The notes: a model not told the origin generated them from the letters alone. Positions 21,159-37,128 are shown, counted from the first letter of the stretch. The stretch is DNA of 39,118 bases from Flavobacteriales bacterium (GCA_031410075.1 JANNYL010000212.1:1-39118), one strand, 5' to 3'. Numbers and translations: made by a program.

Positions 21159-23408
21159 CTAGGCATACAAACTCATCAACACTTTCTCCGGCGTGTACGG
21201 CGCATCGAACACCATGCGCGCATCCGGCCGGAATGCCTTGATCGCGTTTTGGATCGCGAAGTACACCCCGATGCCATACATCAGCGGTGGCTCGCCCACG
21301 GCCTTGCTGCGGCGGATGGCCAGCGGATGGCCATCGGTCGGTAGCGCTTCGACCGTGATCTCCTTCGGTACGCTATGGATGTCGGGCACCTTGTAGGTGC
21401 TCAGCGCGTTGCTTAGGAGCTTGCCTTTGTCGTTGTAGACGATCTCCTCCATCGTCATCCAGCCGAGGCCCTGCACCAATCCGCCTTCGATCTGGCCGAT
21501 GTCCACCGCATCGTTCATGCGCTTGCCGAAGTCGTGTACCAGCTTCACGGCATCGATCTCGTAGGTGCCACGGATGCAGTCCACCGTGACCATCACAGCC
21601 GCCGTACCATAGACGTGGTACGCGAAGGGATGCCCCTTCTCCTTCGTCTTGTCGAAGTGGATCTCCGGCGTGGCGTAGTGACCGCTCTCGCTCAGGTTCA
21701 CACGGTCCCAGTGCGCAGCGTGGATCAGCTTCTTCCAATCGAGGTCGGTGGGCTGGCCGTTGTTCAGTACGCGCTCGTCAACGATTGTGATCACATCAGC
21801 CGTCGTCTTCAACATCCGCGATGCCTTCTCCTTCAGCCGCGCCAGGATAGTGTTGCAACCGTTCTCCAACGCCTTGCCATTCAGGTCCGCTGTGGCGCTG
21901 GCCGCGCTGGGGCTGGTGTTCGCCACGCGCGTGGTGTTGGTGCTTTCGACCTTCACCCGCGATGGGTCGATCGAGAAGACCGCTGCGGCCACCTGCACCA
22001 TCTTGGTGTTGAGGCCCTGGCCCATCTCCACGCCGCCGGTGCTCACGCCTACACTGCCGTCCTGGTAAACATGCACCAGCGCCCGCGCATGGTTCATCGG
22101 TGTGTTGGTGAACGAGATGCCGAAGCAGATGGGCATGATGGCCATGCCTTTCACGTGCGTCGTGCTTTTCGCATTGAAGGCATCGATCTCTGCCTGTTGC
22201 TTGGCGAAGTCGAAGGTCTTGTCGGCCAGTTCCCAGGCAGGAGATGCGTTCACGCGGTCCGCGATCTGGCCGTACGAGAAGCTGTCGCCATCCTTCAACA
22301 GGTTGCGCTGCTGGATCTCACGCGCAGGCACACCGAGCTCTTGCGCCGCCTTCGCGATCGCACTCTCGATCACGAACATGCCTTGCGGACCACCGAACCC
22401 ACGGAACGCGGTGTTCGGCGGCAGGTGCGTGCGGCAGGAGTGGGCCGTCACTTCCACGTTCGGTACGAAGTAGCTGTTGGTCGCATGGAAGAGCGTGCGC
22501 TCCATCACGGCCGGTGACAGGTCAGCGGCAGCGCCGGCGTTCTGGTGGAAAGTGGCTTCGTATGCGAGGATCTTCAGGTCCTTGCTCAGTCCGATCTTGA
22601 AATCGCTGCTGTACGGATGCCGCTTGCCCGTCATGCGCATGTCGTCCATGCGGTGCATTGCCAGCTTCACCGGTTTCTTCAGAATGAACGCAGCAAGCGC
22701 GACCAGCGCGGCCCACGCTGACGCTTGATCCTCCTTGCCGCCAAAGCCGCCGCCGAGACGCGTGACATCAACTTCAATGCGGTGCATCGGAATGCCCAGC
22801 ACACGCGCCACAGTACGCTGCACGGCGGTTGGACCTTGTGTGCTCGATGAAATGCGGATGCTGCCGTGCTCCGTGGGGTAGGCGTAGGCGCCTTGCGTTT
22901 CAATGTACAGATGCTCCTGGCCGTTGTTGTCCGCGCGGCCTTCGATCACATGCGCGCACTGCGACCAAGCCTGCTGTGTATCGCCGAGCTTGAAAGTGCG
23001 TAGCGGGATGATCAGCTCGCCTTTTGCGCGTGCATCGCGCGGATCGGTGATCACCGGTAGTTCCTCCAACTCGATGGAGATCAGCTTGCGTGCTTGAATT
23101 GCGGCGTCTTCTGATGTCGCAATGATCAGCGCAACCGGCATGCCCCAGAAGTGGATCTCGTGCTCGGCGAAGAGCGGCTCATCCGGAATGATCCCGCCGA
23201 TCTGGTTTTCGCCGGTGATGTCGGTGTACGTGAGGATGCGCACCACGCCCGGCGCTGCAGCGGCCTTCGACAGGTCGAGCTTCTTGATGTGCGCGTGTGC
23301 CGAAGGAGCATCGTAGGGCAGCGCGTACAGCGTTCCCTGCTGCACTGGAATATCGTCGAGGTAGATCGATCGACCCGTGACGTGGCCTGCGCTGTCGATG
23401 TTCTTCAT
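21159..23408 (-). CDS. xdhB: Xanthine dehydrogenase, molybdopterin-binding subunit
   Basis: 749 aa. Aldehyde oxidase/XDH a/b-hammerhead and Moco domains (GGGFGGKE, FRGFGGPQG, VGEPP). ATGA overlap with xdhA. Confidence 0.93.
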   Translation of the reverse strand: MKNIDSAGHVTGRSIYLDDIPVQQGTLYALPYDAPSAHAHIKKLDLSKAAAAPGVVRILTYTDITGENQIGGIIPDEPLFAEHEIHFWGMPVALIIATSEDAAIQARKLISIELEELPVITDPRDARAKGELIIPLRTFKLGDTQQAWSQCAHVIEGRADNNGQEHLYIETQGAYAYPTEHGSIRISSSTQGPTAVQRTVARVLGIPMHRIEVDVTRLGGGFGGKEDQASAWAALVALAAFILKKPVKLAMHRMDDMRMTGKRHPYSSDFKIGLSKDLKILAYEATFHQNAGAAADLSPAVMERTLFHATNSYFVPNVEVTAHSCRTHLPPNTAFRGFGGPQGMFVIESAIAKAAQELGVPAREIQQRNLLKDGDSFSYGQIADRVNASPAWELADKTFDFAKQQAEIDAFNAKSTTHVKGMAIMPICFGISFTNTPMNHARALVHVYQDGSVGVSTGGVEMGQGLNTKMVQVAAAVFSIDPSRVKVESTNTTRVANTSPSAASATADLNGKALENGCNTILARLKEKASRMLKTTADVITIVDERVLNNGQPTDLDWKKLIHAAHWDRVNLSESGHYATPEIHFDKTKEKGHPFAYHVYGTAAVMVTVDCIRGTYEIDAVKLVHDFGKRMNDAVDIGQIEGGLVQGLGWMTMEEIVYNDKGKLLSNALSTYKVPDIHSVPKEITVEALPTDGHPLAIRRSKAVGEPPLMYGIGVYFAIQNAIKAFRPDARMVFDAPYTPEKVLMSLYA

Positions 23409-24868
23409 CGGACGAGCTCGTTCAGCGTGAAACGCTCCGGGAAGAGCTCCATGAAATGCGCGAAGAACAGCTGGCGCAGCAGCAAACGTTTGTAATCCGC
23501 TGTGCCGCGCGCATCGCTGATGGGTGCGATCTCTTCGTTGATCAACTTGATGGCAGCGCTCACGGTTTCCGCATTCGCTGGCTTGCCCACAAGGAAGGCC
23601 GAGGTGTTCGCGAGGTACTTCGGTACCGGCGCCACGCCACCGGCACTCACATGCGCTTCGACGATCGTATCGCCGTCCATCTCCAAGCGGATCGCGGTGT
23701 TCACGCTAGCGATGTCGAGGTAGGTGCGCTTGCTCACCTTCTCGAAGTGGAAGCGCGTGTTCTTTCCTGGAACTTTGAAGCGCACGGAGGTCACGATCTC
23801 GTCCGTTGACTTGTCCAGTTGTTTGTAGCCTTTGTAGAGGTCGCGGAGTTTCAAACTGCGTGCATCATATGCGCGATTCCGGCTCAACCCCGGGTCAAAA
23901 GCCCGGGGCGGAATGACAGCATCCTGGGAGAGTGTGACGGTACTGTCCAGCGCCAGGAAGAAGACCGTGAGGTCACCGATGGGCGAGGCGTTCACGAAGT
24001 TGCCGGCCACTGTGCCCATGTTGCGGATGGGCGTGGAGGAGACCAGCAGAAGATGCTTCTCGATGTTCGGGAAGTGCGTGCGTAGTTCTTCCGAGGCCAA
24101 CAGGTCGTTCGCCACACACGCCCCGCCGATGATGCATTGATCGCCGTCGATGCGAATGCCTTTCAACTCCACTTCGTTGAACACCGAACGAATGGCCGCA
24201 TGATGCATGCTGTCGTGCTTCTGCACATACAGGTCGGTGCCGCCAGAGAGGACGATGCCAGTGTCGGCTGATCGTTGTCTGTTGGCCGTCCCGCGGGCCA
24301 ACGCGCCAAGTCGCTCCTTGATGGTCGTGAAATAGGAGGGGAGGAATCCGTTCCCCACGGACCACTTCACCGGATTGGTAACATCCTTCTTCGCGAGCTT
24401 GTCCGCAATGATGGCTGCTGCGCGCTCGATGGACTTGTAGCCGGTGCAGCGGCAGATGTTGCCGTCGATCGCGCGCACTGCGAGTTCGTTGGTCACCTTC
24501 TCCCGCGACAGGCAGCAACCGCTGAGCGATACCACGAAGCCCGGCGTGCAGAAGCCGCATTGCGTGCCGCTTTCATCCACCAGCGCTTGTTGCACCGGCG
24601 AGAGCTTCTCCATGTTGAGCCCTTCCACCGTCACGATGTGCTTGCCCTGCACGTTCGCCAGTGCGAGCAGGCAGGAGGTCATCGAGCGGTAGACAACCTG
24701 ATCGTTCTTCAACTCGCCCACGAGCACCGTGCATGCGCCACAATCCCCTTCGCGGCAGCCGATCTTGGTGCCCGGCAGGTGTTGGTGGTAGCGGATGATG
24801 TCCAGCAGCACCGTGCCCTCATGCGCAGTGCTCTCCACGAGGGTGTCGTTCAGGAGGAAGGAGATCAT
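23405..24868 (-). CDS. xdhA: Xanthine dehydrogenase small subunit ([2Fe-2S] + FAD-binding)
   Basis: 487 aa. CREGDCGACTV and CGFCTPG iron-sulfur motifs, CRCTGY, then a FAD-binding domain (LSGGTDL). Confidence 0.93.
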   Translation of the reverse strand: MISFLLNDTLVESTAHEGTVLLDIIRYHQHLPGTKIGCREGDCGACTVLVGELKNDQVVYRSMTSCLLALANVQGKHIVTVEGLNMEKLSPVQQALVDESGTQCGFCTPGFVVSLSGCCLSREKVTNELAVRAIDGNICRCTGYKSIERAAAIIADKLAKKDVTNPVKWSVGNGFLPSYFTTIKERLGALARGTANRQRSADTGIVLSGGTDLYVQKHDSMHHAAIRSVFNEVELKGIRIDGDQCIIGGACVANDLLASEELRTHFPNIEKHLLLVSSTPIRNMGTVAGNFVNASPIGDLTVFFLALDSTVTLSQDAVIPPRAFDPGLSRNRAYDARSLKLRDLYKGYKQLDKSTDEIVTSVRFKVPGKNTRFHFEKVSKRTYLDIASVNTAIRLEMDGDTIVEAHVSAGGVAPVPKYLANTSAFLVGKPANAETVSAAIKLINEEIAPISDARGTADYKRLLLRQLFFAHFMELFPERFTLNELVR

Positions 24869-27390: not shown

Positions 27391-27462
27391 GGCCCCATAG
27401 TTCAATGGATAGAATAGGAGTTTCCTAAACTCTTGATCCAGGTTCGACTCCTGGTGGGGTCA
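27391..27462 (+). tRNA. tRNA-Arg (anticodon CCT)
   Basis: The cloverleaf folds by hand. Acceptor GGCCCCA/TGGGGTC, D-arm GTTC-AATGGATA-GAAT, anticodon arm GGAGT-TTCCTAA-ACTCT, T-arm CCAGG-TTCGACT-CCTGG, discriminator A. CCA is not encoded. Confidence 0.92.
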
Positions 27463-27479
27463 CATAGGCTGGTTGTTTT

Positions 27480-27582: not shown

Positions 27583-27594
27583 TGACGAACGTCA
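27583..27594 (+). promoter_or_regulatory. Crp/Fnr-type box 1 (TGACGAACGTCA) upstream of the P-type ATPase
   Basis: Palindromic TGAC-N4-GTCA. A 26-nt spacer leads to CTTTG (27621-27625). The box centre is 41.5 nt upstream of GTG 27630. Confidence 0.6.
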
Positions 27595-27629
27595 GTTCTT
27601 CCCAGACGTCGATCAGCCCTCTTTGCGCT

Positions 27630-30008
27630 GTGCAAGTCAAGGAGCTGACATCCGTCACCTGCTACCACTGTGGCGACCCGTGCGCGGAAACGCATCGTGT
27701 GCACGCCGGTAAGGACTTTTGCTGCCAAGGCTGCGAGGTGGTGTACGACCTGTTGAACGAAAGCGGGTTGTGCAACTACTACGAACTGGAGAAACAACCG
27801 GGCGTCAAGCAGATCGGTACGCTGGACCAGCAACGCATCGAACTGTTCGATCTCGCGGAAGTGCGCGAGCGTGTTGTTGAATTCAGCGAAGAAGGGATCA
27901 CACGAGCGCGGTTCCATATCCCGCAGATGCATTGTAGTTCGTGCATCTGGTTGTTGGAAAACCTGCACCGCATCGAACCGTCGGTGATGCGCTCACGCGT
28001 ATCGTTCACAACCAAAGAACTCACGGTCACCTTCCGCGAGGAACGCTTCTCCCTGGCACAACTGGTAACCCTGCTGCGGCGCATCGGCTATGGCCCGCAG
28101 CTCACCGCATCAAGCGGAGCGAAAGGCAACACCACAGCGCCACGCCTTATGTACATCCGCTTGGGTGTGGCCGGTTTCATCTTTGGAAACACGATGATGT
28201 TCAGCTTTCCGGAATACCTCGGGGCGAACACCGAAGCGGGATTGAAGACGGGCTTCCAATGGCTCACCATCCTGTTCTCGTTGCCGGTGGTTTTCTTCCT
28301 GAGCACGGATTTCTTCAAAAGCGCGTGGGCGGGCATCCGATCGAGACAGGTGAACATCGATCAACCCATTGCCCTAGGCATCGTTGCCCTTTGGACGCGC
28401 AGTTTGTGGGAAGTGCTCAGCGGCATTGGTCCCGGATACTTCGATTCATTGGCGGGCTTGTTGTTCTTCCTGCTCATCGGCCGTTGGTACCAGGCACACA
28501 CTTATCGCGCCTTGCGTTTCGATAGGGCTTTGGAGGATTTCCTTCCATTGGTCGTTCTGCGAAAAACAAGGACCGGTGAAGAAGCCGTGAAAGTCGCCGA
28601 GTTGTCACCCGGTGATCACATTATCATCCGGGATCAAGAGCTTGTCCCGGTGGATGCGGTCCTCTGCGAAGGCACGGCGCACATCGACAGCAGCTTCATC
28701 ACAGGCGAGCCCTTGGCCGTGCGCAAGAACATCGGCGATACCATCAAGGCCGGTGGTCGGCAACGCGGTGCGGTGATCGAACTGGAAGTGCTGCGTTCGT
28801 TCGCCGACAGTCGATTGAAAAAGCTGTGGGCCGAGCAAGGCAGTGCGCACGACCGACCTGCGATGCCCCGCATGATCGACAACGTTGCACGCCGGTTCAC
28901 CATCGCGGTTCTACTGATAACATTGGGCGCGGGCTTGTATTGGTGGGGCAAGGATCCTTCGCAGATCTGGCCTGTAGTAACGGCCGTGCTCATTGTGGCG
29001 TGCCCTTGCGCGTTGGCGCTCAGCATGCCGTTCGCGTATGGCCACACGATAAGGTTGATGGGCAAGCAAGGCTTGTTCCTGCGCGACGCTGAAGTGGTTG
29101 AACGCATGGCGCACGTGGACACGGTGATCTTCGACAAGACCGGCACGCTCACCGCACGCGAAGCGCACGAGGTCACATGGCATGGCGCCCGTACCAGCGA
29201 GCATGATCGATCATTGATCCGCTCCTTGGTCAGGAACAGTACTCATCCACTGAGCGCTGTGTTGTTCCAGGAATTGGGATCGGAGATGTTGGATGCTCGC
29301 GATGTGGAGGAACATGCCGGGCAAGGCATTCGGGGAACGATAAGTGGATCGGTCGTGCGCGTTGGTTCGGCCTTGTTCTGCGGCGGCGAGGAAACATCCC
29401 GTTCGAACGGCGAGGCCCACGTGCACGTGACGATCGGCGGTTTGCATCTGGGTCATTACACCATCCGCAAACGCGCGCGTAATGGCATTGTGGCCGCAGT
29501 TGCACGCCTGCGCGAACATGTGCGCGTTGGATTGCTCACTGGTGATGCGCAAGTGGATATCGAACTGGCCGAAGCGTTCCACGGATCCACAGTTCGCACG
29601 CACTGCTCCCCGGTCGACAAGTCGAACGCGATCGGTGCGGAACAAACATCCGGACATCGCGTGCTGATGGTCGGCGACGGATTGAACGATGCTGGAGCAC
29701 TCGCCCAGAGCGATGTGGGCATCACCGTTACCGAAACCAGTGCGGCGCTTACACCAGCCAGCGATGCCATCCTGGACGCGCTGGCCATCGAGCAACTTCC
29801 CCACTTCCTGCGCATGGCAAGGCGCGCACGCCGCATCGTGATCGGTAGCTTGTTCATCTCGCTGTGCTACAACATCACTGGTGTGTCGTTCGCGGTGAGT
29901 GGAAAACTCACGCCCTTGATCGCGGCGATCCTGATGCCGTTGAGTTCTGTGACCGTGGTTGGGTTCGTGACCGTGGCGGTGATGTGGGCGGCGCGCCGAA
30001 GGAACTGA
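27630..30008 (+). CDS. Heavy-metal (Cu) translocating P1B-type ATPase, CcoI/FixI-like
   Basis: 792 aa with a GTG start. N-terminal CYHCGDPC...CCQGCEVVY domain, HMA-like MHCSSC, TM CPC (ACPCALALS), DKTGTLT, VGDGLNDAGAL. Confidence 0.93.
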   Translation: MQVKELTSVTCYHCGDPCAETHRVHAGKDFCCQGCEVVYDLLNESGLCNYYELEKQPGVKQIGTLDQQRIELFDLAEVRERVVEFSEEGITRARFHIPQMHCSSCIWLLENLHRIEPSVMRSRVSFTTKELTVTFREERFSLAQLVTLLRRIGYGPQLTASSGAKGNTTAPRLMYIRLGVAGFIFGNTMMFSFPEYLGANTEAGLKTGFQWLTILFSLPVVFFLSTDFFKSAWAGIRSRQVNIDQPIALGIVALWTRSLWEVLSGIGPGYFDSLAGLLFFLLIGRWYQAHTYRALRFDRALEDFLPLVVLRKTRTGEEAVKVAELSPGDHIIIRDQELVPVDAVLCEGTAHIDSSFITGEPLAVRKNIGDTIKAGGRQRGAVIELEVLRSFADSRLKKLWAEQGSAHDRPAMPRMIDNVARRFTIAVLLITLGAGLYWWGKDPSQIWPVVTAVLIVACPCALALSMPFAYGHTIRLMGKQGLFLRDAEVVERMAHVDTVIFDKTGTLTAREAHEVTWHGARTSEHDRSLIRSLVRNSTHPLSAVLFQELGSEMLDARDVEEHAGQGIRGTISGSVVRVGSALFCGGEETSRSNGEAHVHVTIGGLHLGHYTIRKRARNGIVAAVARLREHVRVGLLTGDAQVDIELAEAFHGSTVRTHCSPVDKSNAIGAEQTSGHRVLMVGDGLNDAGALAQSDVGITVTETSAALTPASDAILDALAIEQLPHFLRMARRARRIVIGSLFISLCYNITGVSFAVSGKLTPLIAAILMPLSSVTVVGFVTVAVMWAARRRN

Positions 30009-30035
30009 TCGACTGTCAAGGATCAGTTCGCTACG

Positions 30036-30047
30036 TGACCAACGTCA
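30036..30047 (+). promoter_or_regulatory. Crp/Fnr-type box 2 (TGACCAACGTCA) upstream of the giant T9SS protein gene
   Basis: Same TGAC-N4-GTCA core, with a 26-nt spacer to CTTTA (30074-30078). Confidence 0.55.
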
Positions 30048-30120
30048 GTATCGCAGCGCGGGGATATGCAGAACTTTAGTGAAGAGGCAGGGATCCTTTA
30101 GGTCCTTGAACTTATCGACC

Positions 30121-33100
30121 ATGAAACAACTCAACCGCTTGTTGTTTACGGGGGCTTTTGCTCTCGCCGCATTGACCGTAGTGCATGCCCAACCGAATAC
30201 ATGGGTGCGTTCGGAAAACCTGAACGGTCCTGCGCGTCATGATGCGTTAGGCTTCGCCATCGGCGACAAGGTCTACACGTGCCTAGGCCTGAACATGGAT
30301 GGTGACACGCTGACCGACCTGTGGGAATACGATCCCGCCAACTCCACGTGGACGGCGAAGGCGGCCTTTCCCGGAACGCCACGTGTGGGTGCCGTGACCT
30401 TCACGATCGGCAACGTGGCATATGTGACTACGGGTGGTACGGTGAATGATACCCTGAACGACCTATGGGCATACGATCCCGTAAGTGATGCTTGGACACA
30501 GAAGGCCGATCTGCCGGGTAGTGCGCGCACGCGGGCTGGCACGTTCGCTGTTGGCGCGTTGGGGTACGTCTTCGCAGGCATAGGTCCACCGTTACAGGAT
30601 GAGAACGGCTACGACATGTATCCCAGTTTAGGGGATCTGTGGGCTTACGATCCCGTGCCGGATAGTTGGGTCCAGCGCGCGGATCTGTTTACCGGGTTCA
30701 TTGGTTCTGATCCCCCGATCTACCGATCATGCGGCTTCACATTGGGCGGAAATGGATACGCGACCAGAGGCAATGCCGTGGATTCGTACGATCCTCCAAC
30801 GAACAGCTGGACCACCAAGGCGGACATCGATCCCGACCTTTTCTTCGACCCGCACCAGGACTACATCGGGTTCTCTTTGGGTGGTCATGGCTACCTGACC
30901 AATATGGGTCGTGGTAGTTCCGGCTCGTGGTCCCAAACCCATCCCAATAAACTGTTGCGGTACGATCCGGTCGCTGATACCTGGATCCTCGCGGGATACT
31001 TCCCCGGCCTCGCACGCGATGAGGTTGCATTCGCGCGCATAGGGTCGGTGGTCTACATCATATCCGGCGCGCACTACTGGCGCACATGGTTCAACCCGGA
31101 TCCTGAGGCAGAGCCGTTCTCTCTCGAAGATCATCGCGTTGACCTCGGCGAAGTGTGGATGTATGATATACGGGACTGTCAAGGGATCCCGGATGGAACA
31201 ACTGTTCCTGGTGGACCTTGCAACGACGGGAACCTTGGAACCTATGGCGATGTCTATGATCTCCAGTGCACATGCACGGGCGTCTCACAACCCATGCAGC
31301 CGTTCCACCCGGACCAAGTGGACAACAGCTTCATCACCGGCACCGGCTTCGACGGTGAAGTACAGGCGCTCTTGCTTCAACCGGATGGCAAGATCCTCGC
31401 CGCCGGTGCCTTCAATACGTTCAACGACACGGCCTGCAACGGCATCGCCCGCTTGAACACCGATGGCTCGTTGGATGGCACATTCAATGGCGCTTTGGGA
31501 GGAAGGGCACTTGCGCTTCAACCCGATGGGCGGATCCTGGTCGGCGGCAATGGCATCACACGGCTCATGCCTGATGGATCCCTGGACCCCTCGTACGACA
31601 CCTACTTGTCGGACATTGGTATACTGCCTGTCAATGCGTTGGCCCTTCGCCCGGATGGGCGCATCATTGCCGGAGGATCGTTCGGTCTTGTGGACGAGTT
31701 TGGCACCAATCAAACACCGGGGCTCATGCAATTGATGCCGAACGGCAGTCAGGATGCATCCTTCGTCCCCGACCTGATCCTGGTCCAAGCGACCGTGCAA
31801 GTTTTGTTACTGCGACCCAATGGAAGAGTGCTCGTTGGTATGGCGAACGCATATGCCGGGGATCCCGCAGGATACAACCTGGCAGAACTTCAGGCGGATG
31901 GTTCGATCTCCATGCCCTTCAATGGCAACATCCGCCGATCGTTCCTTGAGCCGGTGAATGCCTTGCAGTTGCGACCGAACGGTGAGTTGGTCGTTGGCGG
32001 AGAATTCCTCCTCTTCAATGATGAACCCTGGTTCAGTGATGGTATCCCTCGCAAGAACATCGCACTGCTCGCTGCGGATGGGACTCTTTCTGCCGCATTC
32101 GACCCAAGTACTTCCACTGACGGCTTTATCCGTGCATTGGCCATCGGTCCACAAGGCCAGATCATCGCCGGTGGGGACTTCACGAACTACCGGTATGCAC
32201 TCCATAGCGGCATCGTACAGTTGAATGACTACGGGTATGCTGACGCATCGTTCCAGTCGGGAACCGGCTTCAACGGTGGCGTGCGCGCCTTCTCACTACA
32301 AACCGATGGCCAGCTCATCGTCGGCGGGGCGTTCACGGCGTACAATGGAACCGTCTGCGGCCGCATCACACGCTTGCGCACGCCACCGATAGGCGATTGT
32401 GAAGGCGTGGCTGGTGGAGGCGCTCTCCCGGGAACAGCATGCAATGATTGTGACCCCACGACTTTCAATGATGTCTATGATGTGAACTGTGTTTGCGCAG
32501 GTATCACCACCACAGGCCCGGCCTATCAGGCAGGCAGCCTCGATCCAACGTTCGATCCAGGTTCAGGCTTCACTGGCGGGGCTGGCAGCATGGCGCTTCA
32601 GCCGGATGGCAAGGTGATCGTATCGGGAGGCTTCACGGCTTTCAATGGCACCACGAAGAACCGCATCGCACGCATCAATGCCGATGGTTCGTTGGACGCC
32701 GGATATGCCACTGGCACCGGTTTCAATGACCGCACCATTGACGTCGCCCTGCAACCTAACGGCAAGGTGCTCGTGAGCGGGGATTTCACCTCGTTCAATA
32801 ACGCGCCCCGCGACCTCGTTGTGCGGCTGAACGCCAACGGCTCCTTGGACGCCTCCTTCAACCCGGGAACGGATCACAATGCCACGAGCACCAATAAGCT
32901 GGCCTTGCAACCGGACGGCAAGGTGCTCGTCGGTGGTGGCTTCTTGAACTTCAACGGATCCGATGTATACGACCTGCTGCGCTTGAACGCGAACGGGAGT
33001 TTTGATCCCACACACGATATCGGCTTGGGCTTCGACTTTCCATCGGACCTGAACGGGGATCCAACAGATATGGTCATACAACCGGACGGCAAGGTGATCG

Positions 33101-34314
33101 TGGTGGGTGGATTCCTATGGTATGATGGTCTATCCCCCTTCGTTGGCACCATCTGCCGGGGGATCGCACGGCTTGATCCGAACGGTGCGCTGGACTACAG
33201 CTTCGAGCATGGAGGGAGTTATTCCGATCCGGATGATGGATTCACTGGCGTCCCCTTGGTGATCGCCTTGCAACCCGATGGACGTATCCTGGTCGGTGGA
33301 GATTTCACTTCCTATGAGACAGTAGCGCGAAATCGGATCATCCGATTGAACGCGGACGGAACCGTGGATCCCACCTTCGATCCGGGCAACGGGTTCAATG
33401 ACGAAGTGCTCGCCATGGTGCTCCAACCAGACGGAAAGATCCTGGTGGGTGGTGCTTTCACCTCTTTCAATGGGGCACTGCGCGAGCGGATCGCACGGCT
33501 GAACCCGGATGGCAGCTTGGATGCCACCTTCCAACCATGCGCGGGGTTCAATGCCAGCGTGAAGGATCTCGTCCTGCAACCGGATGGGAGGTTGCTGGCC
33601 TGTGGCAATTTCACTTCCTATGCCGGCGTGGCACGCAACCGCATCGCCCGCCTCTTCACCGTGGATGCCACCTGCATCGCCTCGCAGCTCACCACCACCG
33701 CCGATCCCGTGATCAGTTGCGGCGCTACCAACCTGAAGTTCAACGGCACCAGCACCATCGCCGCCACGGAAGTGCCCGGCGCGAACAAGTACCAGTTCCG
33801 GTTCACGAACATCACCGGCCAACCGGCGTATTCCCGCAACATCGCCTGGCCCACGCGGAGCTTCACCCTCACCAAGTGGACCACCAACCCGCTGAAGGCG
33901 GGCCGTACGTACAACGTGCTGGTCCGCGCCAGTTTCGACAACGGGACCACGTGGTGTGACTGGGGTCCTTCATGCACGGTGAAGGTGAGCTGGACACCGT
34001 TCGCACCGGGTACCCAGCCGCGTGACATGGAAACAATGAATTCCTTGGAACCTGAGCTGCACCTCTACCCCAACCCCAACAATGGGGATCAACTACGCAT
34101 CAGCCTGAACGGAACCGATCCGGACCTTACCACTGTTGCGCTCGAGATCACCGACCTCTTCGGGAAGCGGGTAATGACCTCCACACTTGCTCTGCAGGAT
34201 GGTGAGATGAACGCGCTATTGCCATTGCGCAATGATCTCGCTGATGGACTGTACATCGTGACCATCACCGCAGGTGAACGCGTGTTCAACGAGCGGTTGG
34301 TGATCACGCAATGA
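30121..34314 (+). CDS. Giant secreted Kelch-repeat + delta-60-repeat protein with T9SS C-terminal sorting domain
   Basis: 1397 aa from ATG 30121 (signal peptide MKQLNRLLFTGAFALAALTVVHAQ). Kelch-like blades carry DLW(E/A)YDPxxxxW. There are two 36-aa Cys motifs (nt 31174-31281 and 32395-32502). Each is followed by many DGSLDxxF...LQPDGK(I/V)LVGG delta-60-type repeats. An Ig-like domain follows, then the T9SS CTD (nt 34045-34311: LHLYPNPNNGDQLRISL...GLYIVTITAGERVFNERLVITQ). Confidence 0.9.
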   Translation: MKQLNRLLFTGAFALAALTVVHAQPNTWVRSENLNGPARHDALGFAIGDKVYTCLGLNMDGDTLTDLWEYDPANSTWTAKAAFPGTPRVGAVTFTIGNVAYVTTGGTVNDTLNDLWAYDPVSDAWTQKADLPGSARTRAGTFAVGALGYVFAGIGPPLQDENGYDMYPSLGDLWAYDPVPDSWVQRADLFTGFIGSDPPIYRSCGFTLGGNGYATRGNAVDSYDPPTNSWTTKADIDPDLFFDPHQDYIGFSLGGHGYLTNMGRGSSGSWSQTHPNKLLRYDPVADTWILAGYFPGLARDEVAFARIGSVVYIISGAHYWRTWFNPDPEAEPFSLEDHRVDLGEVWMYDIRDCQGIPDGTTVPGGPCNDGNLGTYGDVYDLQCTCTGVSQPMQPFHPDQVDNSFITGTGFDGEVQALLLQPDGKILAAGAFNTFNDTACNGIARLNTDGSLDGTFNGALGGRALALQPDGRILVGGNGITRLMPDGSLDPSYDTYLSDIGILPVNALALRPDGRIIAGGSFGLVDEFGTNQTPGLMQLMPNGSQDASFVPDLILVQATVQVLLLRPNGRVLVGMANAYAGDPAGYNLAELQADGSISMPFNGNIRRSFLEPVNALQLRPNGELVVGGEFLLFNDEPWFSDGIPRKNIALLAADGTLSAAFDPSTSTDGFIRALAIGPQGQIIAGGDFTNYRYALHSGIVQLNDYGYADASFQSGTGFNGGVRAFSLQTDGQLIVGGAFTAYNGTVCGRITRLRTPPIGDCEGVAGGGALPGTACNDCDPTTFNDVYDVNCVCAGITTTGPAYQAGSLDPTFDPGSGFTGGAGSMALQPDGKVIVSGGFTAFNGTTKNRIARINADGSLDAGYATGTGFNDRTIDVALQPNGKVLVSGDFTSFNNAPRDLVVRLNANGSLDASFNPGTDHNATSTNKLALQPDGKVLVGGGFLNFNGSDVYDLLRLNANGSFDPTHDIGLGFDFPSDLNGDPTDMVIQPDGKVIVVGGFLWYDGLSPFVGTICRGIARLDPNGALDYSFEHGGSYSDPDDGFTGVPLVIALQPDGRILVGGDFTSYETVARNRIIRLNADGTVDPTFDPGNGFNDEVLAMVLQPDGKILVGGAFTSFNGALRERIARLNPDGSLDATFQPCAGFNASVKDLVLQPDGRLLACGNFTSYAGVARNRIARLFTVDATCIASQLTTTADPVISCGATNLKFNGTSTIAATEVPGANKYQFRFTNITGQPAYSRNIAWPTRSFTLTKWTTNPLKAGRTYNVLVRASFDNGTTWCDWGPSCTVKVSWTPFAPGTQPRDMETMNSLEPELHLYPNPNNGDQLRISLNGTDPDLTTVALEITDLFGKRVMTSTLALQDGEMNALLPLRNDLADGLYIVTITAGERVFNERLVITQ

Positions 34315-34359
34315 TCGATCAATCCGGGTCACGTCCCGTTTCAACTCAAAGAACCTATC

Positions 34360-34941
34360 ATGCGCACAGGAAACTTGTGGAACGAAGAACAACGTGATCC
34401 TCGGAAAGCGAAGCCGAACGATCCGGATCCACGGCACGAAGCTGAGCGTCGGCATCATGAGCCGCATGTTATCCCGCGTGAAGAAAGATCAGCCGCGGAA
34501 GATCGGCGGAGCGCGGCGGCCGTCGGTCGCGGATCCTTTCAAGGGCGATGGTTCCTGCTGATGCTGCTCATTTGGCTATCGGGCACAGCTCTTTATGGTG
34601 GCGGCGCCATGTTGTTGCGGCCCGATGGAAGTTTGTTACGGCTGGCTCCTTCCGACATGGCGACCAGTTTGTTCGCGGACTTTTTCTGGCCCGGAATGAT
34701 CCTGTTCACGGTATTCGGAGTGGGCGGCGCACTCTCTACTATCGCGATCATCCGTCGGCACTCGTGGGGCTACCTGCTGGCAATGGTCATTGGGTCCGGT
34801 CAGATCGTATGGATCCTGGCGCAAACCGTGCTGGTGGCAAAACCGGCGATGTTGCAAGTGTTCTACCTGCTGCTCGGCGTGGCGATCACAGCGTTGGCTT
34901 CACGTGCTGGTTATCATATCCGGCCAGCGGGATCCATTTGA
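34360..34941 (+). CDS. Small integral membrane protein (4 TM) with a highly charged N-terminal extension; function unknown
   Basis: 193-aa ORF. ~60 aa of charged N-terminus, then four hydrophobic helices. The start codon is uncertain. Confidence 0.55.
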   Translation: MRTGNLWNEEQRDPRKAKPNDPDPRHEAERRHHEPHVIPREERSAAEDRRSAAAVGRGSFQGRWFLLMLLIWLSGTALYGGGAMLLRPDGSLLRLAPSDMATSLFADFFWPGMILFTVFGVGGALSTIAIIRRHSWGYLLAMVIGSGQIVWILAQTVLVAKPAMLQVFYLLLGVAITALASRAGYHIRPAGSI

Positions 34942-34970
34942 ACGTTCGGTGCACGCGCTCAGCAGGAACC

Positions 34971-34982
34971 TGACCGATGTCA
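34971..34982 (+). promoter_or_regulatory. Crp/Fnr-type box 3 (TGACCGATGTCA) upstream of the Usp gene
   Basis: 26-nt spacer to TAGCTTTC (35006-35013), a near-consensus Bacteroidota -7 element TAnnTTTG. Confidence 0.6.
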
Positions 34983-35047
34983 CTAAAAAACCACGGCAAG
35001 TCCGGTAGCTTTCGACTCGTTCCATCAAGTCAATAAACACGAACCAC

Positions 35048-35854
35048 ATGGCGCATTTGCTCCTTCCCACAGACTTCAGTGATCAATCGTTGAAGGCCGC
35101 GACCTTGGCTATCGATCTTTTCGGTAGCAAAGGGAACCAGTTCACCTTGGTCCATTCATACAACGCTGCTGGATTGGCGGACCCCTTGGTACCGGGTGCC
35201 CTTCCTGATCTGCACAAGATCCATTCGGATGGGCTGGAGGAATTCGAGCAGAAGTTGCGCTCGAAGTGCGATCTCGCATCAGCCAAAGTGAACAGCATCG
35301 TGGCCTTCGGTCCTTTATCCGGGGTGATCGACGATGCAGCGAAAGAGAAGGATATCGATCTCGTCGTAATGGCTTCAGCAGGTAGGTCCGGTTCGTCCTT
35401 CTTCGGAAGCAATGCAACAGGTGTGATGCAGGGTGCGCACATTCCTGTTCTGGAGATCCCAATGGATGTGACCTCGCTCTCTTTCAGGAAGATCCTGTTC
35501 GCGGATGACAAGTCACCGATAGAGCCGCAAGCGCTGGATATTCTCGCTGCGATCGCACGGAATTCTGGTGCAACCGTGCTCATCGCCCATGTGGCTACCG
35601 GACGACCCGCACGGGACCAGGTGGATAATACCGCTTTGTTCGATCGTGTGTTCGCGGCCATTCCGCATCGTTCGATCATGGTGGAACACAATGATGTGGA
35701 AACGGCACTTTTCGATCTTGCAGCGAAAGAGCTGGTGGACCTGATCGCCATGCTGCACAGGCACAAAGGACTCTGGGGTAGCCTGTTCCATTCAAGTGCT
35801 ACCAAGGCCGTGGCACTGCACAGCAAGATCCCGGTGCTTGCATTGGAGCAGTGA
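35048..35854 (+). CDS. Universal stress protein (tandem UspA domains)
   Basis: 268 aa. MAHLLLPTDFSDQS...LVVMASAGRSG, with a second domain ...LIAMLHRHKG...SATKAVALHSKIPVLAL. Confidence 0.88.
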   Translation: MAHLLLPTDFSDQSLKAATLAIDLFGSKGNQFTLVHSYNAAGLADPLVPGALPDLHKIHSDGLEEFEQKLRSKCDLASAKVNSIVAFGPLSGVIDDAAKEKDIDLVVMASAGRSGSSFFGSNATGVMQGAHIPVLEIPMDVTSLSFRKILFADDKSPIEPQALDILAAIARNSGATVLIAHVATGRPARDQVDNTALFDRVFAAIPHRSIMVEHNDVETALFDLAAKELVDLIAMLHRHKGLWGSLFHSSATKAVALHSKIPVLALEQ

Positions 35855-35891
35855 ACAACGAACGAGGAACACCACCAACCGAACGAACTTC

Positions 35892-36215
35892 ATGGTAGAT
35901 AGAGGCTTTCGTAAGACGCTGCTCGGAGACGCATCATCAGACGATATTGAACGGCTCCTTCGCCAAGGCGCTACGGTCGTGGACATTCGGTCGGACGAGG
36001 AGTTCAAGGAAGGGCACGTGCCGGGATGCTTGCACATCCCACTAACGGATCTATTACGACAACTGGCATCCATACCCAAGGACCGCCCCGTGGTAACTTG
36101 TAATGCGGAAAATGCGCTGAGCGCCACCGCAGCGGAGATGCTCGAAGCGCATGGATATGAAGCCTACGATGGCGGTGGCTGGACCAGGGTCGCGCACCTG
36201 TTGAACAAGAAGTGA
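35892..36215 (+). CDS. Rhodanese-like domain protein (single domain, atypical active-site loop)
   Basis: 107 aa. VVDIRSDEEFKEGHVPGCLHIP...DRPVVTCNAENALSATAAEML. The Cys is present, but the loop CNAENAL lacks the usual CxxGxR(S/T). Confidence 0.8.
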   Translation: MVDRGFRKTLLGDASSDDIERLLRQGATVVDIRSDEEFKEGHVPGCLHIPLTDLLRQLASIPKDRPVVTCNAENALSATAAEMLEAHGYEAYDGGGWTRVAHLLNKK

Positions 36216-36683
36216 TCACAAATCGGAGAGTGTCCCTGCTCCTTCCATTCGCTCGAACCTTCCCGTCTTCTGACCTAACCGAATGCGGAACGCAACAGTT
36301 CGTGGGCGCGTACCATCGGGTAAGGGGTCGACCCTCGCAGGGTCCGAGGTTATACTCGGCTTGCGCGGCCTCAGCCATCGCGTGAAAGAAGCGATCACCT
36401 TCGTTGTCTGCTCGGGGCTCAGTTCTTCGAAATAACCTTGGGCCACAACGCTTTCCCAATTGGTCATCTCGCGCATGTTGTCCACTTCGAAGCATACTGA
36501 CGGGTTCGCCCGCATCATGCGCAACTTCTGGCCTTCTGCCGAATGGCAGTACACATCCTCTCCGTCGTACCAATAGTTGACAGGTACCACGTAAGTCATC
36601 CCGTCCGCATGGCAGCCGATCCGCCCGACGCATTCTTGTTGAAGCAGTCGCTCGATATGTTCCGGCCCGAGTTTTCCTAGCAT
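36216..36683 (-). CDS. Pyridoxamine 5'-phosphate oxidase-family (FMN-binding split barrel) protein
   Basis: 155 aa from ATG 36683. GRIGCHADGMTYVVPVNYWYDGEDVYCHSAEGQKLRMMRANPSVCFEVD. The stop abuts the rhodanese stop codon (convergent). Confidence 0.85.
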   Translation of the reverse strand: MLGKLGPEHIERLLQQECVGRIGCHADGMTYVVPVNYWYDGEDVYCHSAEGQKLRMMRANPSVCFEVDNMREMTNWESVVAQGYFEELSPEQTTKVIASFTRWLRPRKPSITSDPARVDPLPDGTRPRTVAFRIRLGQKTGRFERMEGAGTLSDL

Positions 36684-36729
36684 GAGGCAGGATTTTCCCA
36701 AGGATACCCAAGTGGCACAGGTCCGTTCC

Positions 36730-36741
36730 TGACGATCGTCA
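36730..36741. promoter_or_regulatory. Crp/Fnr-type box 4 (TGACGATCGTCA, perfect 12-bp palindrome) in the divergent PNPOx / YegP spacer
   Basis: 26-nt spacer to CACCTTTG (36765-36772) towards yegP. On the other side, CCTTG (reverse complement of 36699-36703) lies at the mirror-image distance towards the PNPOx gene. Confidence 0.6.
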
Positions 36742-36789
36742 TTTCAACCGCAGGGGATACCGAACACCTTTGAATTCAACCCATCACCG

Positions 36790-37122
36790 ATGAGTCACGG
36801 AAAGTTCCACATCAAGCCCGACATACGCGGTGAGCACAGGTTCAATTTGGTAACCGGGAACGGCGAGGTGATACTGAGCAGCGAGGGCTACGCGATGCAT
36901 GCTTCCTGCGTGAAGGGTATAGAAAGCGTTCGTCGGCACGCACCGGATATCGCCAATTATGAACGCACTATTTCCGCGAGCGGCAAATATCACTTCAACC
37001 TGAAGGCCAAGAACGGCGAGGTGATCGGTACCAGCCAGATGTACAGCAGCTCTGAAAGCATGGAGAAGGGCATTGCTGCCGTGATGCGCGCGGCGCCCGT
37101 TGCCGATGTTACAGCACCTTGA
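36790..37122 (+). CDS. YegP-family protein (two DUF1508 repeats)
   Basis: 110 aa. GEHRFNLVTGNGEVILSSEGY and GKYHFNLKAKNGEVIGTSQMY tandem repeats. Confidence 0.88.
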   Translation: MSHGKFHIKPDIRGEHRFNLVTGNGEVILSSEGYAMHASCVKGIESVRRHAPDIANYERTISASGKYHFNLKAKNGEVIGTSQMYSSSESMEKGIAAVMRAAPVADVTAP

Positions 37123-37128
37123 GGGGTA

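What the first reader, a model, noticed from the sequence alone, without database searches (positions are those of the whole stretch)
27583..36772. Four TGAC-N4-GTCA palindromes, each exactly 26 nt upstream of a CTTT(G) -7-like element: a fixed-geometry Crp/Fnr-type regulon
The four sites, each written as box, 26-nt spacer, then -7-like octamer, are as follows.
- Box 1 (27583): ccTGACGAACGTCAgt, then CCTCTTTG.
- Box 2 (30036): cgTGACCAACGTCAgt, then GAACTTTA.
- Box 3 (34971): ccTGACCGATGTCAct, then TAGCTTTC.
- Box 4 (36730): ccTGACGATCGTCAtt, then CACCTTTG.
All four boxes are intergenic, all have CTTT at the identical offset, and all face a plus-strand gene start. Those genes are the CcoI-like Cu-ATPase, the giant T9SS protein, Usp-rhodanese and YegP. 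TGA-N6-TCA is the core of FNR/FixK/CRP-family sites. The octamer matches the Bacteroidota -7 consensus TAnnTTTG to varying degrees. The box centre falls ~41.5 nt from the predicted transcription start, which is the classic class II activation geometry. From base composition I roughly estimate fewer than one TGAC-N4-GTCA per window by chance, and far fewer in the ~10% that is intergenic. The gene set (a cbb3-assembly-type ATPase, Usp, rhodanese, a PNPOx-family flavoprotein and YegP) fits a low-oxygen or redox-stress regulon. Including a 1397-aa surface protein in it is unexpected. The regulator itself is not in the window. I did not scan coding regions exhaustively by eye.
Basis: partly seen in the sequence, partly recalled or inferred. 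Interest (0 to 1): 0.72.

Follow-up and report, generated by a model that had tools for sequence, protein, structure and literature searches.

The report
Low-oxygen FNR-type promoter boxes, Flavobacteriales
Four promoters in this Flavobacteriales genome fragment carry the same 12-base palindrome at a fixed distance from the core promoter; related genomes show it is the docking site of an oxygen-responsive Crp/Fnr-type activator that controls high-affinity respiration and stress genes.

Summary
TGAC-N4-GTCA occurs 5 times in the window against 0.68 expected. The four intergenic copies each lie exactly 26 nt before CTTT.

About 36 of 41 related Flavobacteriales genomes keep the box, the 26-nt spacer and a (C)TTTG element upstream of the ccoI-like ATPase. 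Cytophagales and one Flavobacteriaceae MAG (Croceitalea) keep it too. In relatives the same module precedes ccoS-ccoNO, ccoG, nrdJ, usp, yegP and a peroxiredoxin. It also precedes an operon encoding a CDO-like cupin, a FixL-like haem-PAS histidine kinase and a fused receiver–Crp/Fnr regulator. That operon is the likely autoregulated regulator locus.

The published Flavobacterium -7 box sits at -12 to -5, which puts the palindrome centre at -41.5, the class II activation position where the -33 element would normally be.

- Boxes 1, 3 and 4 are conserved in orthologous promoters.
- Box 2 (T9SS giant protein) keeps only its proximal half-site in relatives.
- The intragenic box (centre +22.5) is maintained by biased codon choice, so it is probably a second operator.

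No regulator lies in the window and no expression data exist. I rate this a new variant of a known kind.

The parts
27583..27594 (.). Box 1, TGACGAACGTCA. Predicted activator site centred at -41.5 of the ccoI-like ATPase promoter.
   Evidence: Exact match. An exact or 1-mismatch box with the same geometry is present in about 36 of 41 orthologous promoters. It scores 31.1 with a PWM trained on relatives only, against a null maximum of 16.5.
27618..27625 (+). -7-like element CCTCTTTG of the ATPase promoter. The predicted transcription start is at about 27630, the G of the GTG start codon, which would make the mRNA leaderless.
   Evidence: The 26-nt spacing is read. Orthologues carry a conserved CTCTTTGC followed by 4-5 nt and then ATG/GTG. 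The position of TAnnTTTG at -12 to -5 is taken from PMC9723704.
27630..30008 (+). CcoI/FixI-like copper-translocating P-type ATPase gene.
   Evidence: Pfam PF12156, PF00122, PF00702 and PF00403. In relatives the gene is followed by ccoS-ccoNO.
27646..27657 (.). It lies inside codons 6-10 (L-T-S-V-T) of the ATPase gene, centred at about +22.5, 63 bp from box 1. It is a putative second operator.
   Evidence: Exact match. It is exact in 22 related loci. The Val codon at this site is GTC in 26 of 33 homologues, although GTC is only 15% of Val codons in these genes, and the adjacent Thr third positions vary freely.
30036..30047 (.). Box 2, TGACCAACGTCA, upstream of the T9SS delta-60/Kelch giant protein gene.
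   Evidence: Exact match, with CTTTA 26 nt downstream. PWM score is 16.8, about equal to the null maximum. The homologous promoters L091 and L089 keep GTCA + 26 nt + CTTAG/GTTTG, but the distal half is AAAC/AAGC.
30071..30078 (+). -7-like element GAACTTTA of the box 2 promoter.
30121..34314 (+). 1397-aa T9SS-secreted delta-60 repeat / Kelch protein gene.
   Evidence: Pfam DUF5122 x11, Kelch and Por_Secre_tail. No full-length orthologue was found; the best hits are 52-62% identical over 53-72% of the query.
34360..34941 (+). orf193, a membrane protein with no family match. It is a conserved upstream neighbour of usp.
   Evidence: No Pfam or NCBIfam hit. Homologues precede usp in L080 and L083, and homologues also follow the ATPase gene in L002 and L005.
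34971..34982 (.). Box 3, TGACCGATGTCA, upstream of usp-rhodanese.
   Evidence: Exact match. Orthologous usp promoters keep the box: TGACGTCCATCA + 26 nt + CTTTA in L083/84, TGATGATCGTCA in L080, and an exact box in L010. Usp paralogues sit next to boxes in L025 and L035.
35006..35013 (+). -7 element TAGCTTTC. Of the four, this is the best match to TAnnTTTG.
35048..35854 (+). Tandem-domain universal stress protein gene.
   Evidence: Pfam PF00582, 3 stretches.
35892..36215 (+). Rhodanese-domain gene, probably co-transcribed with usp.
   Evidence: Pfam PF00581. The ATG at 35892 gives a 107-aa product, as in L078.
36216..36683 (-). PNPOx-like (Pyridox_ox_2) flavoprotein gene, divergent from yegP. 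Regulation from box 4 is uncertain.
   Evidence: Pfam PF12900. The divergent layout is conserved in L080, but the CTTG element on this side shifts by 2 nt.
36730..36741 (.). Box 4, TGACGATCGTCA, upstream of yegP.
   Evidence: Exact match. YegP orthologues in three other genomic contexts (L080, L085/86, L087/88) all have an exact box + 26 nt + CTT[TC]. PWM score is 23.5.
36765..36772 (+). -7-like element CACCTTTG of the yegP promoter.
36790..37122 (+). YegP (DUF1508 x2) gene.
   Evidence: Pfam PF07411.

Best explanation
The TGAC-N4-GTCA palindromes are binding sites for a dimeric Crp/Fnr-family transcription activator of an oxygen-limitation regulon.

Shown:
- The palindrome is conserved.
- It is always followed by 26 nt and then a (C)TTT(G) element that matches the 3' half of the Bacteroidota sigma-A -7 box TAnnTTTG.

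Inferred:
- With that box at -12 to -5, the palindrome spans -47 to -36 and is centred at -41.5. It therefore occupies the place of the missing -33 element.
- The bound dimer recruits RNA polymerase in the class II manner.

The most likely regulator is inferred from relatives, because it is not in the window. It is a fused response regulator (receiver domain + cNMP-binding-like domain + Crp-type HTH, recognition helix VGTATESLIRCL). It is encoded directly after a FixL-like haem-PAS histidine kinase, in an operon that starts with a CDO-like cupin and carries the same box. Low O2 would switch on the kinase, and the phosphorylated regulator would then activate its targets.

Window targets: ccoI, usp-rhodanese, yegP and perhaps the T9SS protein.
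Targets elsewhere in relatives: ccoS-ccoNO, ccoG, nrdJ and its own operon.

A second, codon-embedded box at +22.5 in ccoI is probably an operator that limits or shapes ccoI expression when the regulator is abundant.
For: - Motif excess: 5 copies against 0.68 expected in the window, and 90 against 10.4 in related loci, with only 7 of the 90 deep inside stop-free frames.
- Fixed geometry: TTT[GC] peaks at a single offset after the box, while the distance to the start codons varies from about 4 to 42 nt. The element is therefore tied to the box, not to translation.
- The -7 box lies at -12 to -5 in mapped Flavobacterium promoters (PMC9723704), which gives a centre of -41.5.
- No TTG or TTTG is present at -33 in the four window promoters (sequence).
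- Box 1 is conserved in about 36 of 41 Flavobacteriales orthologues. It is also present, with the same spacing, in Rufibacter, Nibribacter, Sabulibacter, Hymenobacter and Croceitalea.
- Targets in relatives:
  - COX1+FixO ccoNO
  - CcoG, CcoS and NrdJ equivalogs, all above the curated cut-off, and a peroxiredoxin
  - usp and yegP
- Regulator:
  - Its domains are Response_reg + cNMP_binding + HTH_Crp_2.
  - The kinase gene lies directly upstream in about 72 of 80 metagenome loci.
  - Its PAS domain best matches FixL and DosP haem-PAS structures, with the proximal His aligned.
  - In the relatives first examined, all six cupin-kinase-regulator operons carry the box.
  - All 11 metagenome operons with upstream sequence carry the box + 26 nt + GTT[TC]GC.
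  - The recognition helix GTA[TS]ES[LA]IR is shared with Cys-rich FNR-like proteins encoded next to ccoI in L042 and L043, where the same box occurs.
- Intragenic box: GTC is used in 26 of 33 Val codons at that site against 15% gene-wide.
Against: - No regulator gene is in the window, and the rest of the source genome could not be retrieved.
- There are no TSS, expression or binding data, so activation rather than repression is inferred from position only.
- The related loci were all collected around one gene and are phylogenetically related, so the counts are not independent.
- Box 3 scores only 9.8 with the PWM, which is biased towards ATPase promoters (null mean 8.6).
- The distal half of box 2 is not conserved in the nearest homologous promoters.
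- Other Crp-like paralogues exist in relatives. One of them (L041, helix NEATIR) might read a similar box.
- A leaderless mRNA starting with GUG, as predicted for ccoI here, would be translated poorly in model bacteria (own knowledge).
- In the FixL-like PAS domain the distal Arg of FixL is replaced by Met, so the ligand could differ from O2.
Confidence: 0.75

Rival explanations
1. The promoter logic is the same, but in this genome the regulator is a single-domain Crp/Fnr protein rather than the kinase-controlled REC-Crp fusion. It could be a Cys-rich [4Fe-4S] FNR-like sensor, as found next to ccoI in L042 and L043, or another paralogue.
For: L042a and L043a carry N-terminal Cys motifs and the same GTATESAIR helix, and they sit beside ccoI with the same box. 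L041 encodes a 244-aa Crp-like protein with an E-x-x-I-R helix directly after the ATPase gene. The window genome's regulator is unknown.
Against: In the high-GC Flavobacteriales clade that contains the window (ATPase identity 62-85%), the Crp/Fnr proteins with this helix that were found are all REC fusions, and each is autoregulated by the box. Over a hundred clusters of 70-99% identical REC fusions exist in this clade.
Confidence: 0.17
2. The palindromes are repressor operators or roadblocks rather than activator sites. The genes would then be derepressed under some stress.
For: Position alone cannot prove activation. One copy (27646) lies downstream of the predicted start, where binding would repress.
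Against: The four intergenic boxes sit exactly where the -33 element should be, and no -33 TTG is present. The rigid helical-phase spacing to the -7 box across dozens of unrelated promoters is typical of class II activators. Repressors tolerate variable placement.
Confidence: 0.05
3. It is a carbon or cAMP (CRP- or MalR-like) regulon rather than an oxygen regulon.
For: Crp/Fnr homologues in Flavobacteriales MAGs were provisionally assigned to MalR-like carbon sensing in PMC8510549. The regulator retains a cNMP-binding-like domain.
Against: The targets are cbb3 oxidase subunits and assembly genes, B12-dependent RNR, Usp and a peroxiredoxin. The partner kinase has a FixL/DosP-type haem-PAS domain. 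No sugar-utilisation genes were seen behind the boxes.
Confidence: 0.03

Closest known systems
E. coli FNR class II promoters (TTGAT-N4-ATCAA centred at -41.5)
   Same: - The site is a dyad with a TGA-N6-TCA core and a 4-nt central spacer.
- Its centre computes to -41.5.
- It replaces the upstream promoter element.
- The recognition-helix residues E and R (E209 and R213 in FNR, from own knowledge) are kept as E-S-L-I-R.
   Different: - The outer T/A of the FNR box is not conserved; flanks are c/g.
- The core promoter is the Bacteroidota -7 TAnnTTTG type, not -10 TATAAT.
- The Ser of E--SR is replaced by Ile.
- The likely regulator has no N-terminal Cys cluster and carries a receiver domain instead.
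Rhizobial FixL-FixJ-FixK (and hFixL-FxkR-FixK) cascade controlling fixNOQP and fixGHIS
   Same: - The kinase has a haem-PAS domain with the proximal His aligned to FixL His200.
- The targets are the same: ccoNO(QP)=fixNO(QP), ccoG=fixG, ccoI=fixI, ccoS=fixS.
- The DNA reader is a Crp/Fnr-type protein.
   Different: - The cascade is collapsed. The receiver domain is fused directly to the Crp/Fnr module, so one protein would do the jobs of FixJ (or FxkR) and FixK.
- No LuxR-type or OmpR-type output domain is present.
- No solved structure covers REC and Crp in one chain.
- The operon starts with a CDO-like cupin.
Pseudomonas aeruginosa Anr/Dnr regulon
   Same: The gene content overlaps: cbb3 oxidase, class II RNR nrdJ and universal stress proteins are Anr/Dnr targets (own knowledge). 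Here nrdJ, usp and cco genes carry the box.
   Different: The sensor type differs (Fe-S in Anr), as do the phylum and the promoter type. YegP and a T9SS protein are not known Anr targets.
Bacteroides thetaiotaomicron MalR (BT4338) and other Bacteroidota Crp/Fnr proteins
   Same: They belong to the same protein family and the same phylum.
   Different: MalR is linked to carbohydrate use. The PWM approach in PMC8510549 did not recover an oxygen regulon in Flavobacteriales. The targets and partner kinase here point to O2.

Membership tests
Crp/Fnr-family (FNR/FixK-type) class II activated promoters | Dyad-symmetric site with a TGA-N6-TCA core | tested here: met
   Five exact TGAC-N4-GTCA copies in the window. 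The motif is conserved in relatives.
Crp/Fnr-family (FNR/FixK-type) class II activated promoters | Fixed spacing to the core promoter element, placing the site centre near -41.5 | tested here: met
   There are 26 nt between the box and CTTT in all four window promoters, with a sharp peak at the same offset in relatives. With TAnnTTTG at -12 to -5 (PMC9723704), the centre is -41.5.
Crp/Fnr-family (FNR/FixK-type) class II activated promoters | Experimentally mapped transcription start and activator-dependent transcription | not testable with these tools
   No RNA or binding data are available for this uncultured lineage.
Crp/Fnr-family (FNR/FixK-type) class II activated promoters | Cognate Crp/Fnr-family regulator encoded in the genome | tested here: inconclusive
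   None is present in the 39-kb window, and the source contig could not be extended. Regulators are present in relatives L004, L024, L025, L029, L032 and L057 (REC fusions) and in L042/L043 (Cys-rich).
Crp/Fnr-family (FNR/FixK-type) class II activated promoters | Motif upstream of the regulator's own gene or operon (autoregulation) | tested here: met
   Tested in relatives only. Six of six genome loci and 11 of 11 metagenome cupin-kinase-regulator operons with upstream sequence carry the box at the same spacing.
Crp/Fnr-family (FNR/FixK-type) class II activated promoters | Regulon content typical of O2 limitation (cbb3 oxidase and its assembly genes, anaerobic-type RNR, Usp) | tested here: met
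   In the window: ccoI and usp. In relatives: ccoNO, ccoS, ccoG, nrdJ and a peroxiredoxin.
FNR sensu stricto ([4Fe-4S] oxygen sensor) | N-terminal cysteine cluster plus one central Cys for the Fe-S centre | tested here: not met
   The REC-Crp fusions of the window's clade lack an N-terminal Cys cluster (sequences). Only the distant L042a and L043a proteins have C-x2-C plus further Cys.
FixL-FixJ-FixK cascade | Haem-PAS histidine kinase (FixL) | tested here: met
   Tested in relatives. The PAS domain of the L029 kinase best matches FixL (E about 1e-15) and DosP haem-PAS structures, and the proximal His aligns. The distal Arg is Met.
FixL-FixJ-FixK cascade | FixJ-type response regulator (REC + LuxR/GerE HTH) that activates a separate fixK gene | tested here: not met
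   The partner response regulator carries cNMP_binding + HTH_Crp_2 as its output. No separate FixJ or FixK pair was seen in these loci.
Bacteroidota sigma-A promoter (-33 TTTG / -7 TAnnTTTG) | -7 box TAnnTTTG | tested here: met
   Partial matches are present: TAGCTTTC (usp), CCTCTTTG, CACCTTTG and GAACTTTA. The regulator operons have TAGGTTTG.
Bacteroidota sigma-A promoter (-33 TTTG / -7 TAnnTTTG) | -33 TTTG/TTG element about 19 nt upstream of the -7 box | tested here: not met
   The position is occupied by the GTCA half-site and non-TTG bases in all four promoters. This is consistent with dependence on an activator.

The most novel reading that the evidence does not exclude
High-GC Flavobacteriales and other Bacteroidota sense oxygen with a compressed FixLJ-FixK pathway. 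A haem-PAS kinase phosphorylates a receiver domain fused directly to a Crp/Fnr DNA-binding module. That protein binds TGAC-N4-GTCA at -41.5 and substitutes for -33 recognition by the Bacteroidota sigma-A. A second operator, written into codons 6-10 of ccoI at +22.5 (six helical turns from the first), makes expression of a leaderless ccoI mRNA band-pass: on at microoxia and damped when the regulator is maximal. The regulon also extends to YegP and a T9SS surface protein.
Probability: 0.3. Interest if true: 0.7.

Novelty: new variant of a known kind. Interest (0 to 1): 0.55.

Why it matters
Flavobacteria are known to induce the cbb3 oxidase strongly under oxygen limitation (PMC9723704). In the searchable literature I found no paper that names the regulator or its cis-element.

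This finding supplies three things:
- a precise, testable cis-element with its geometry;
- a candidate two-component regulator of unusual architecture (receiver fused to Crp/Fnr, partnered with a FixL-like kinase), which public records label only as 'response regulator';
- a core regulon.

It would show how class II activation is implemented on the non-canonical Bacteroidota promoter. It would also give a handle on microoxic physiology in abundant, uncultured wastewater Flavobacteriales. The motif could be used to annotate low-oxygen regulons across the phylum.

Tried and rejected
1. Searched the window for a Crp/Fnr gene (Pfam on 20 ORFs; phmmer with CRP and FNR on all ORFs). None was found.
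2. Tried to extend the source contig by exact-protein look-up. One protein was not on record. YegP was found only on 1.9-3.7 kb near-identical contigs.
3. Scanned metagenome contigs with the Usp protein. No relatives were found.
4. Looked for full-length orthologues of the T9SS giant protein. Only partial paralogue-like matches turned up, and their promoters keep half a box. Box 2 therefore could not be confirmed.
5. Scanned the window with a PWM trained on relatives. It found no sites beyond the five boxes. The PWM is biased towards ATPase promoters and under-scores box 3.
6. Considered divergent control of the PNPOx gene from box 4. The CTTG element on that side shifts by 2 nt between the window and L080, so this is left open.
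7. Considered box 2 as a remnant of the ccoS-ccoNO promoter that follows ccoI in relatives. This was rejected, because its flanks align with promoters of T9SS homologues instead.
8. Rfam and the sigma-70 promoter / terminator scans added nothing except the tRNA.
9. Considered a restriction-modification or repeat-element origin. This was rejected because of the fixed promoter geometry and the enrichment rather than avoidance.
10. Literature searches for a described Bacteroidota FNR/FixK motif or REC-Crp regulator returned nothing relevant.

Full report
**Observation**

An exact search finds TGACNNNNGTCA five times in the 39-kb window, at 27583, 27646, 30036, 34971 and 36730. Dinucleotide-preserving shuffles give 0.68 on average, and none of 100 reached five.

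Reading the sequence confirms that each of the four reported boxes is followed by exactly 26 nt and then CTTT: CTTTG at 27621, CTTTA at 30074, CTTTC at 35009 and CTTTG at 36768. CTTT has a per-position frequency of about 0.003 here, so the shared offset is not chance.

- a CcoI-type P-type ATPase (ATPase-cat_bd, E1-E2, HMA);
- a 1397-aa DUF5122/Kelch protein with a T9SS sorting domain;
- a tandem Usp followed by a rhodanese (ATG at 35892);
- YegP/DUF1508, divergent from a Pyridox_ox_2 flavoprotein.

It lies in codons 6-10 of the ATPase ORF. The window contains one tRNA-Arg just upstream of box 1 and no Crp/Fnr-like ORF.

**Origin and relatives**

The ATPase protein recovers about 42 loci from uncultured, high-GC Flavobacteriales MAGs, mostly from wastewater, at 62-85% identity. 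More distant loci come from Cytophagales, one Flavobacteriaceae MAG (Croceitalea), Ignavibacteria and a few Proteobacteria.

In 782 kb of the Flavobacteriales loci the exact palindrome occurs 90 times against 10.4 expected, and only 7 of the 90 lie deep inside long stop-free frames. After the box, TTT[GC] peaks sharply at one offset: 33 of 190 oriented flanks, against a background of 0-3. A minor peak 22 nt further on comes from promoters with two tandem boxes. These loci share ancestry and were collected around one gene, so the counts illustrate conservation rather than independent events.

**Box 1**

In about 36 of 41 orthologous ATPase promoters, an exact or one-mismatch box is followed by 26 (occasionally 25) nt, then a conserved CTCTTTGC, then 4-5 nt, then the ATG/GTG start.

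The same arrangement, TGA[CT]-N4-GTCA + 26 nt + TTTG, stands upstream of ccoI in Rufibacter, Nibribacter, Sabulibacter, Hymenobacter, a Croceitalea MAG and another Bacteroidota MAG. It is absent in Ignavibacteria. The element is therefore old and spans at least two Bacteroidota orders.

**Geometry**

A transcription-start map of Flavobacterium psychrophilum places the sigma-A -7 box TAnnTTTG at -12 to -5 (PMC9723704). With the G of (C)TTTG at -5, the palindrome spans -47 to -36 and its centre is -41.5. This is the textbook class II position for Crp/Fnr activators (own knowledge).

No TTG or TTTG -33 element is present in the four window promoters, as expected if the activator replaces it. The distance from the -7-like element to the start codon varies from about 4 nt (ccoI) to about 42 nt (T9SS gene), while the distance to the box is constant. 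The element therefore belongs to the promoter and not to translation initiation.

For ccoI the predicted start is the first base of the GTG codon, giving a leaderless or near-leaderless mRNA. Leaderless mRNAs make up 5.5% of mRNAs in F. psychrophilum. A GUG-initiated leaderless mRNA would be unusual, so this remains an open point.

**What else carries the module in relatives**

- ccoS followed by fused ccoNO (COX1+FixO; CcoS equivalog). Here two boxes lie 22 nt apart.
- ccoG (equivalog above cut-off).
- B12-dependent ribonucleotide reductase nrdJ (L080, exact box; NrdJ_Z above cut-off).
- A peroxiredoxin.
- A divergent pair consisting of a CxxCH lipoprotein and a 415-aa membrane protein.
- usp and yegP.

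This is the gene content of FNR/Anr/FixK-type low-oxygen regulons (own knowledge).

**Boxes 2-4**

The segment between the ATPase and mlaD (30009-37128) is variable. The closest relatives go ATPase-(rhodanese)-mlaD. L080 has ATPase-orf100-usp-rhodanese-PNPOx-yegP-mlaD without the T9SS gene.

- Box 4 is well supported. YegP orthologues of 61-83% identity in three other genomic contexts all have an exact TGAC-N4-GTCA followed by 26 nt and CTT[TC].
- Box 3 is supported. Orthologous usp promoters carry TGACGTCCATCA + 26 nt + CTTTA (L083/84), TGATGATCGTCA (L080) or an exact box (L010). Usp paralogues sit beside boxes in L025 and L035.
- Box 2 is the weakest. No full-length orthologue of the T9SS protein was found. 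The promoters of the closest homologues (L091, L089) align with the window and keep GTCA + 26 nt + CTTAG/GTTTG, but their distal half-site is AAAC/AAGC. The full palindrome may be a recent gain in this lineage.

A PWM trained only on relatives scores box 1 at 31.1, box 4 at 23.5, box 2 at 16.8 and box 3 at 9.8, against a null maximum of mean 8.6 and highest 16.5. It finds no further sites in the window. It is dominated by ATPase promoters and penalises the TTTC of box 3.

**The fifth box**

The palindrome at +17 to +28 of the ATPase gene encodes L-T-x-V-T. It is exact in 22 related loci.

In these ATPase genes GTC makes up only 15% of Val codons (GTG is 71%). At this position, however, 26 of 33 Val codons are GTC, and 23 of 24 where the L/V-T-x-V context is kept. 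The third positions of the neighbouring Thr codon and the whole x codon vary freely.

That pattern indicates selection on the DNA sequence itself. The site lies 63-64 bp, six helical turns, from box 1. Bound protein there should hinder transcription. I therefore infer a second operator that damps or shapes ccoI expression at high regulator activity. Cooperative looping is an alternative. Neither has been tested.

**The regulator**

phmmer with E. coli CRP and FNR finds Crp/Fnr-like ORFs in several relatives.

In L029 the gene directly upstream of ccoI encodes a 355-aa protein with Response_reg + cNMP_binding + HTH_Crp_2. It is preceded by a PAS histidine kinase and a CDO_I-like cupin. The operon has its own box + 26 nt + TAGGTTTG, and the same holds in L004, L024, L025, L032 and L035.

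The kinase PAS domain best matches FixL (E about 1e-15) and DosP haem-PAS structures. The proximal His is aligned (rsrH / rhrH), but Met replaces the distal Arg. No PDB chain covers REC and Crp together.

The fusion is abundant. 7988 proteins match with E <= 1e-30 (some may match only part of the query), and sources name them only 'response regulator' or 'CRP-like/CheY-like'.

In 80 metagenome loci of 44-82% identity, the kinase gene lies directly upstream of the regulator in about 72. All 11 cupin-kinase-regulator operons with upstream sequence carry the box at the same spacing, with GTT[TC]GC as the -7 element.

The recognition helix VGTA[TS]ES[LA]IR is shared between these fusions, including the one in Hymenobacter, and the Cys-rich FNR-like proteins encoded beside ccoI in L042 and L043, where the same box occurs. 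It keeps the E and R of FNR's E--SR motif and replaces the Ser (own knowledge of FNR). This fits the loss of the outer T of the FNR box.

The fusions have no N-terminal Cys cluster, so they are not Fe-S FNRs.

The simplest reading is that the pathway is compressed. A haem-PAS kinase controls a receiver fused to the Crp/Fnr module, which would combine the roles of FixJ and FixK. Whether the window's own genome uses this fusion or a single-domain paralogue cannot be decided from 39 kb.

**Comparison and novelty**

Functionally this is an FNR/FixK/Anr-type low-oxygen regulon with class II promoters, which is a known kind. It differs in four ways:
- its implementation on the Bacteroidota -7 promoter;
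- the box variant, which lacks the outer T/A;
- the probable REC-Crp regulator with a FixL-like partner;
- the codon-embedded second operator.

I found no description of this motif or regulator in the searchable literature. A study of wastewater MAGs assigned Flavobacteriales Crp/Fnr homologues to MalR-like carbon sensing (PMC8510549). The F. psychrophilum transcriptome paper reports cbb3 induction under O2 limitation without naming a regulator. I therefore rate it a new variant of a known kind, of moderate interest.

**Limits**

- There are no transcription-start, expression or binding data.
- The regulator is not in the window.
- The related loci are not independent.
- Activation rather than repression is inferred from position.

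Noticed in passing
window 27621-27632: The -7-like TTTG of the ccoI promoter ends only 4 nt before the GTG start codon (4-5 nt before ATG/GTG in orthologues). This predicts a leaderless or 1-nt-leader mRNA, and in many lineages one that starts with GUG.
   Followed up: partly
window 27391-27463: tRNA-Arg (CCT) lies immediately upstream of the ccoI promoter. The tRNA 3' end is seen in the same place in L004, L024 and L055, so the tRNA-ccoI junction is conserved.
   Followed up: partly
window 30009-37128: The block between ccoI and mlaD is a variable island. Closest relatives have only a rhodanese there or nothing. L080 has orf100-usp-rhodanese-PNPOx-yegP. Only the window has the 4.2-kb T9SS gene. 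Three of the four boxes lie in this island.
   Followed up: partly
window 34360-34941: orf193 is a hydrophobic protein with no Pfam or NCBIfam match. It is a conserved neighbour immediately upstream of usp (L080, L083), and homologues also follow the ATPase gene in L002 and L005. Its function is unknown.
   Followed up: partly
L007 13946-13991; also L002 17345, L006 14810, L009 15464, L029 13742, L041 14979, L066 21383: A divergent promoter pair between a CxxCH lipoprotein and a 415-aa membrane protein. It has two boxes 34 nt apart, and the TTTG inside each box serves as the -7 element for the promoter driven by the other box. In most of these loci (not L029), a separate palindrome CGGAC-N6-GTCCG lies between them.
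   Followed up: no
L004 12379-12412, L010 14073-14106, L022 11586-11619, L032 12393-12426; Rufibacter L048 upstream of ccoI: Tandem boxes 22 nt apart (about -63.5 and -41.5) at ccoS-ccoNO promoters, and at Cytophagales ccoI promoters. Usually one box is exact and the other has one mismatch.
   Followed up: partly
L029 7096-7611 and equivalents in L004, L024, L025, L032, L094-L107: The first gene of the regulator operon is a cysteine-dioxygenase-type-I-like cupin, a member of an O2-consuming enzyme family. Its role next to an oxygen-sensing two-component system is unexplained.
   Followed up: no
window 20478-21143 (-): An HNH endonuclease with two homing-endonuclease-associated repeats lies directly beside xanthine-dehydrogenase-family genes (21159-24868). 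It is possibly a mobile or selfish element.
   Followed up: no
whole window: GGATCC occurs 27 times against about 12 expected from base composition. Several copies lie in the intergenic regions near the boxes.
   Followed up: no
L012 12382-12393: An exact box right after ccoI precedes a small protein with a CYDCH haem-binding motif. The element 26 nt downstream is a poor CTTC.
   Followed up: no
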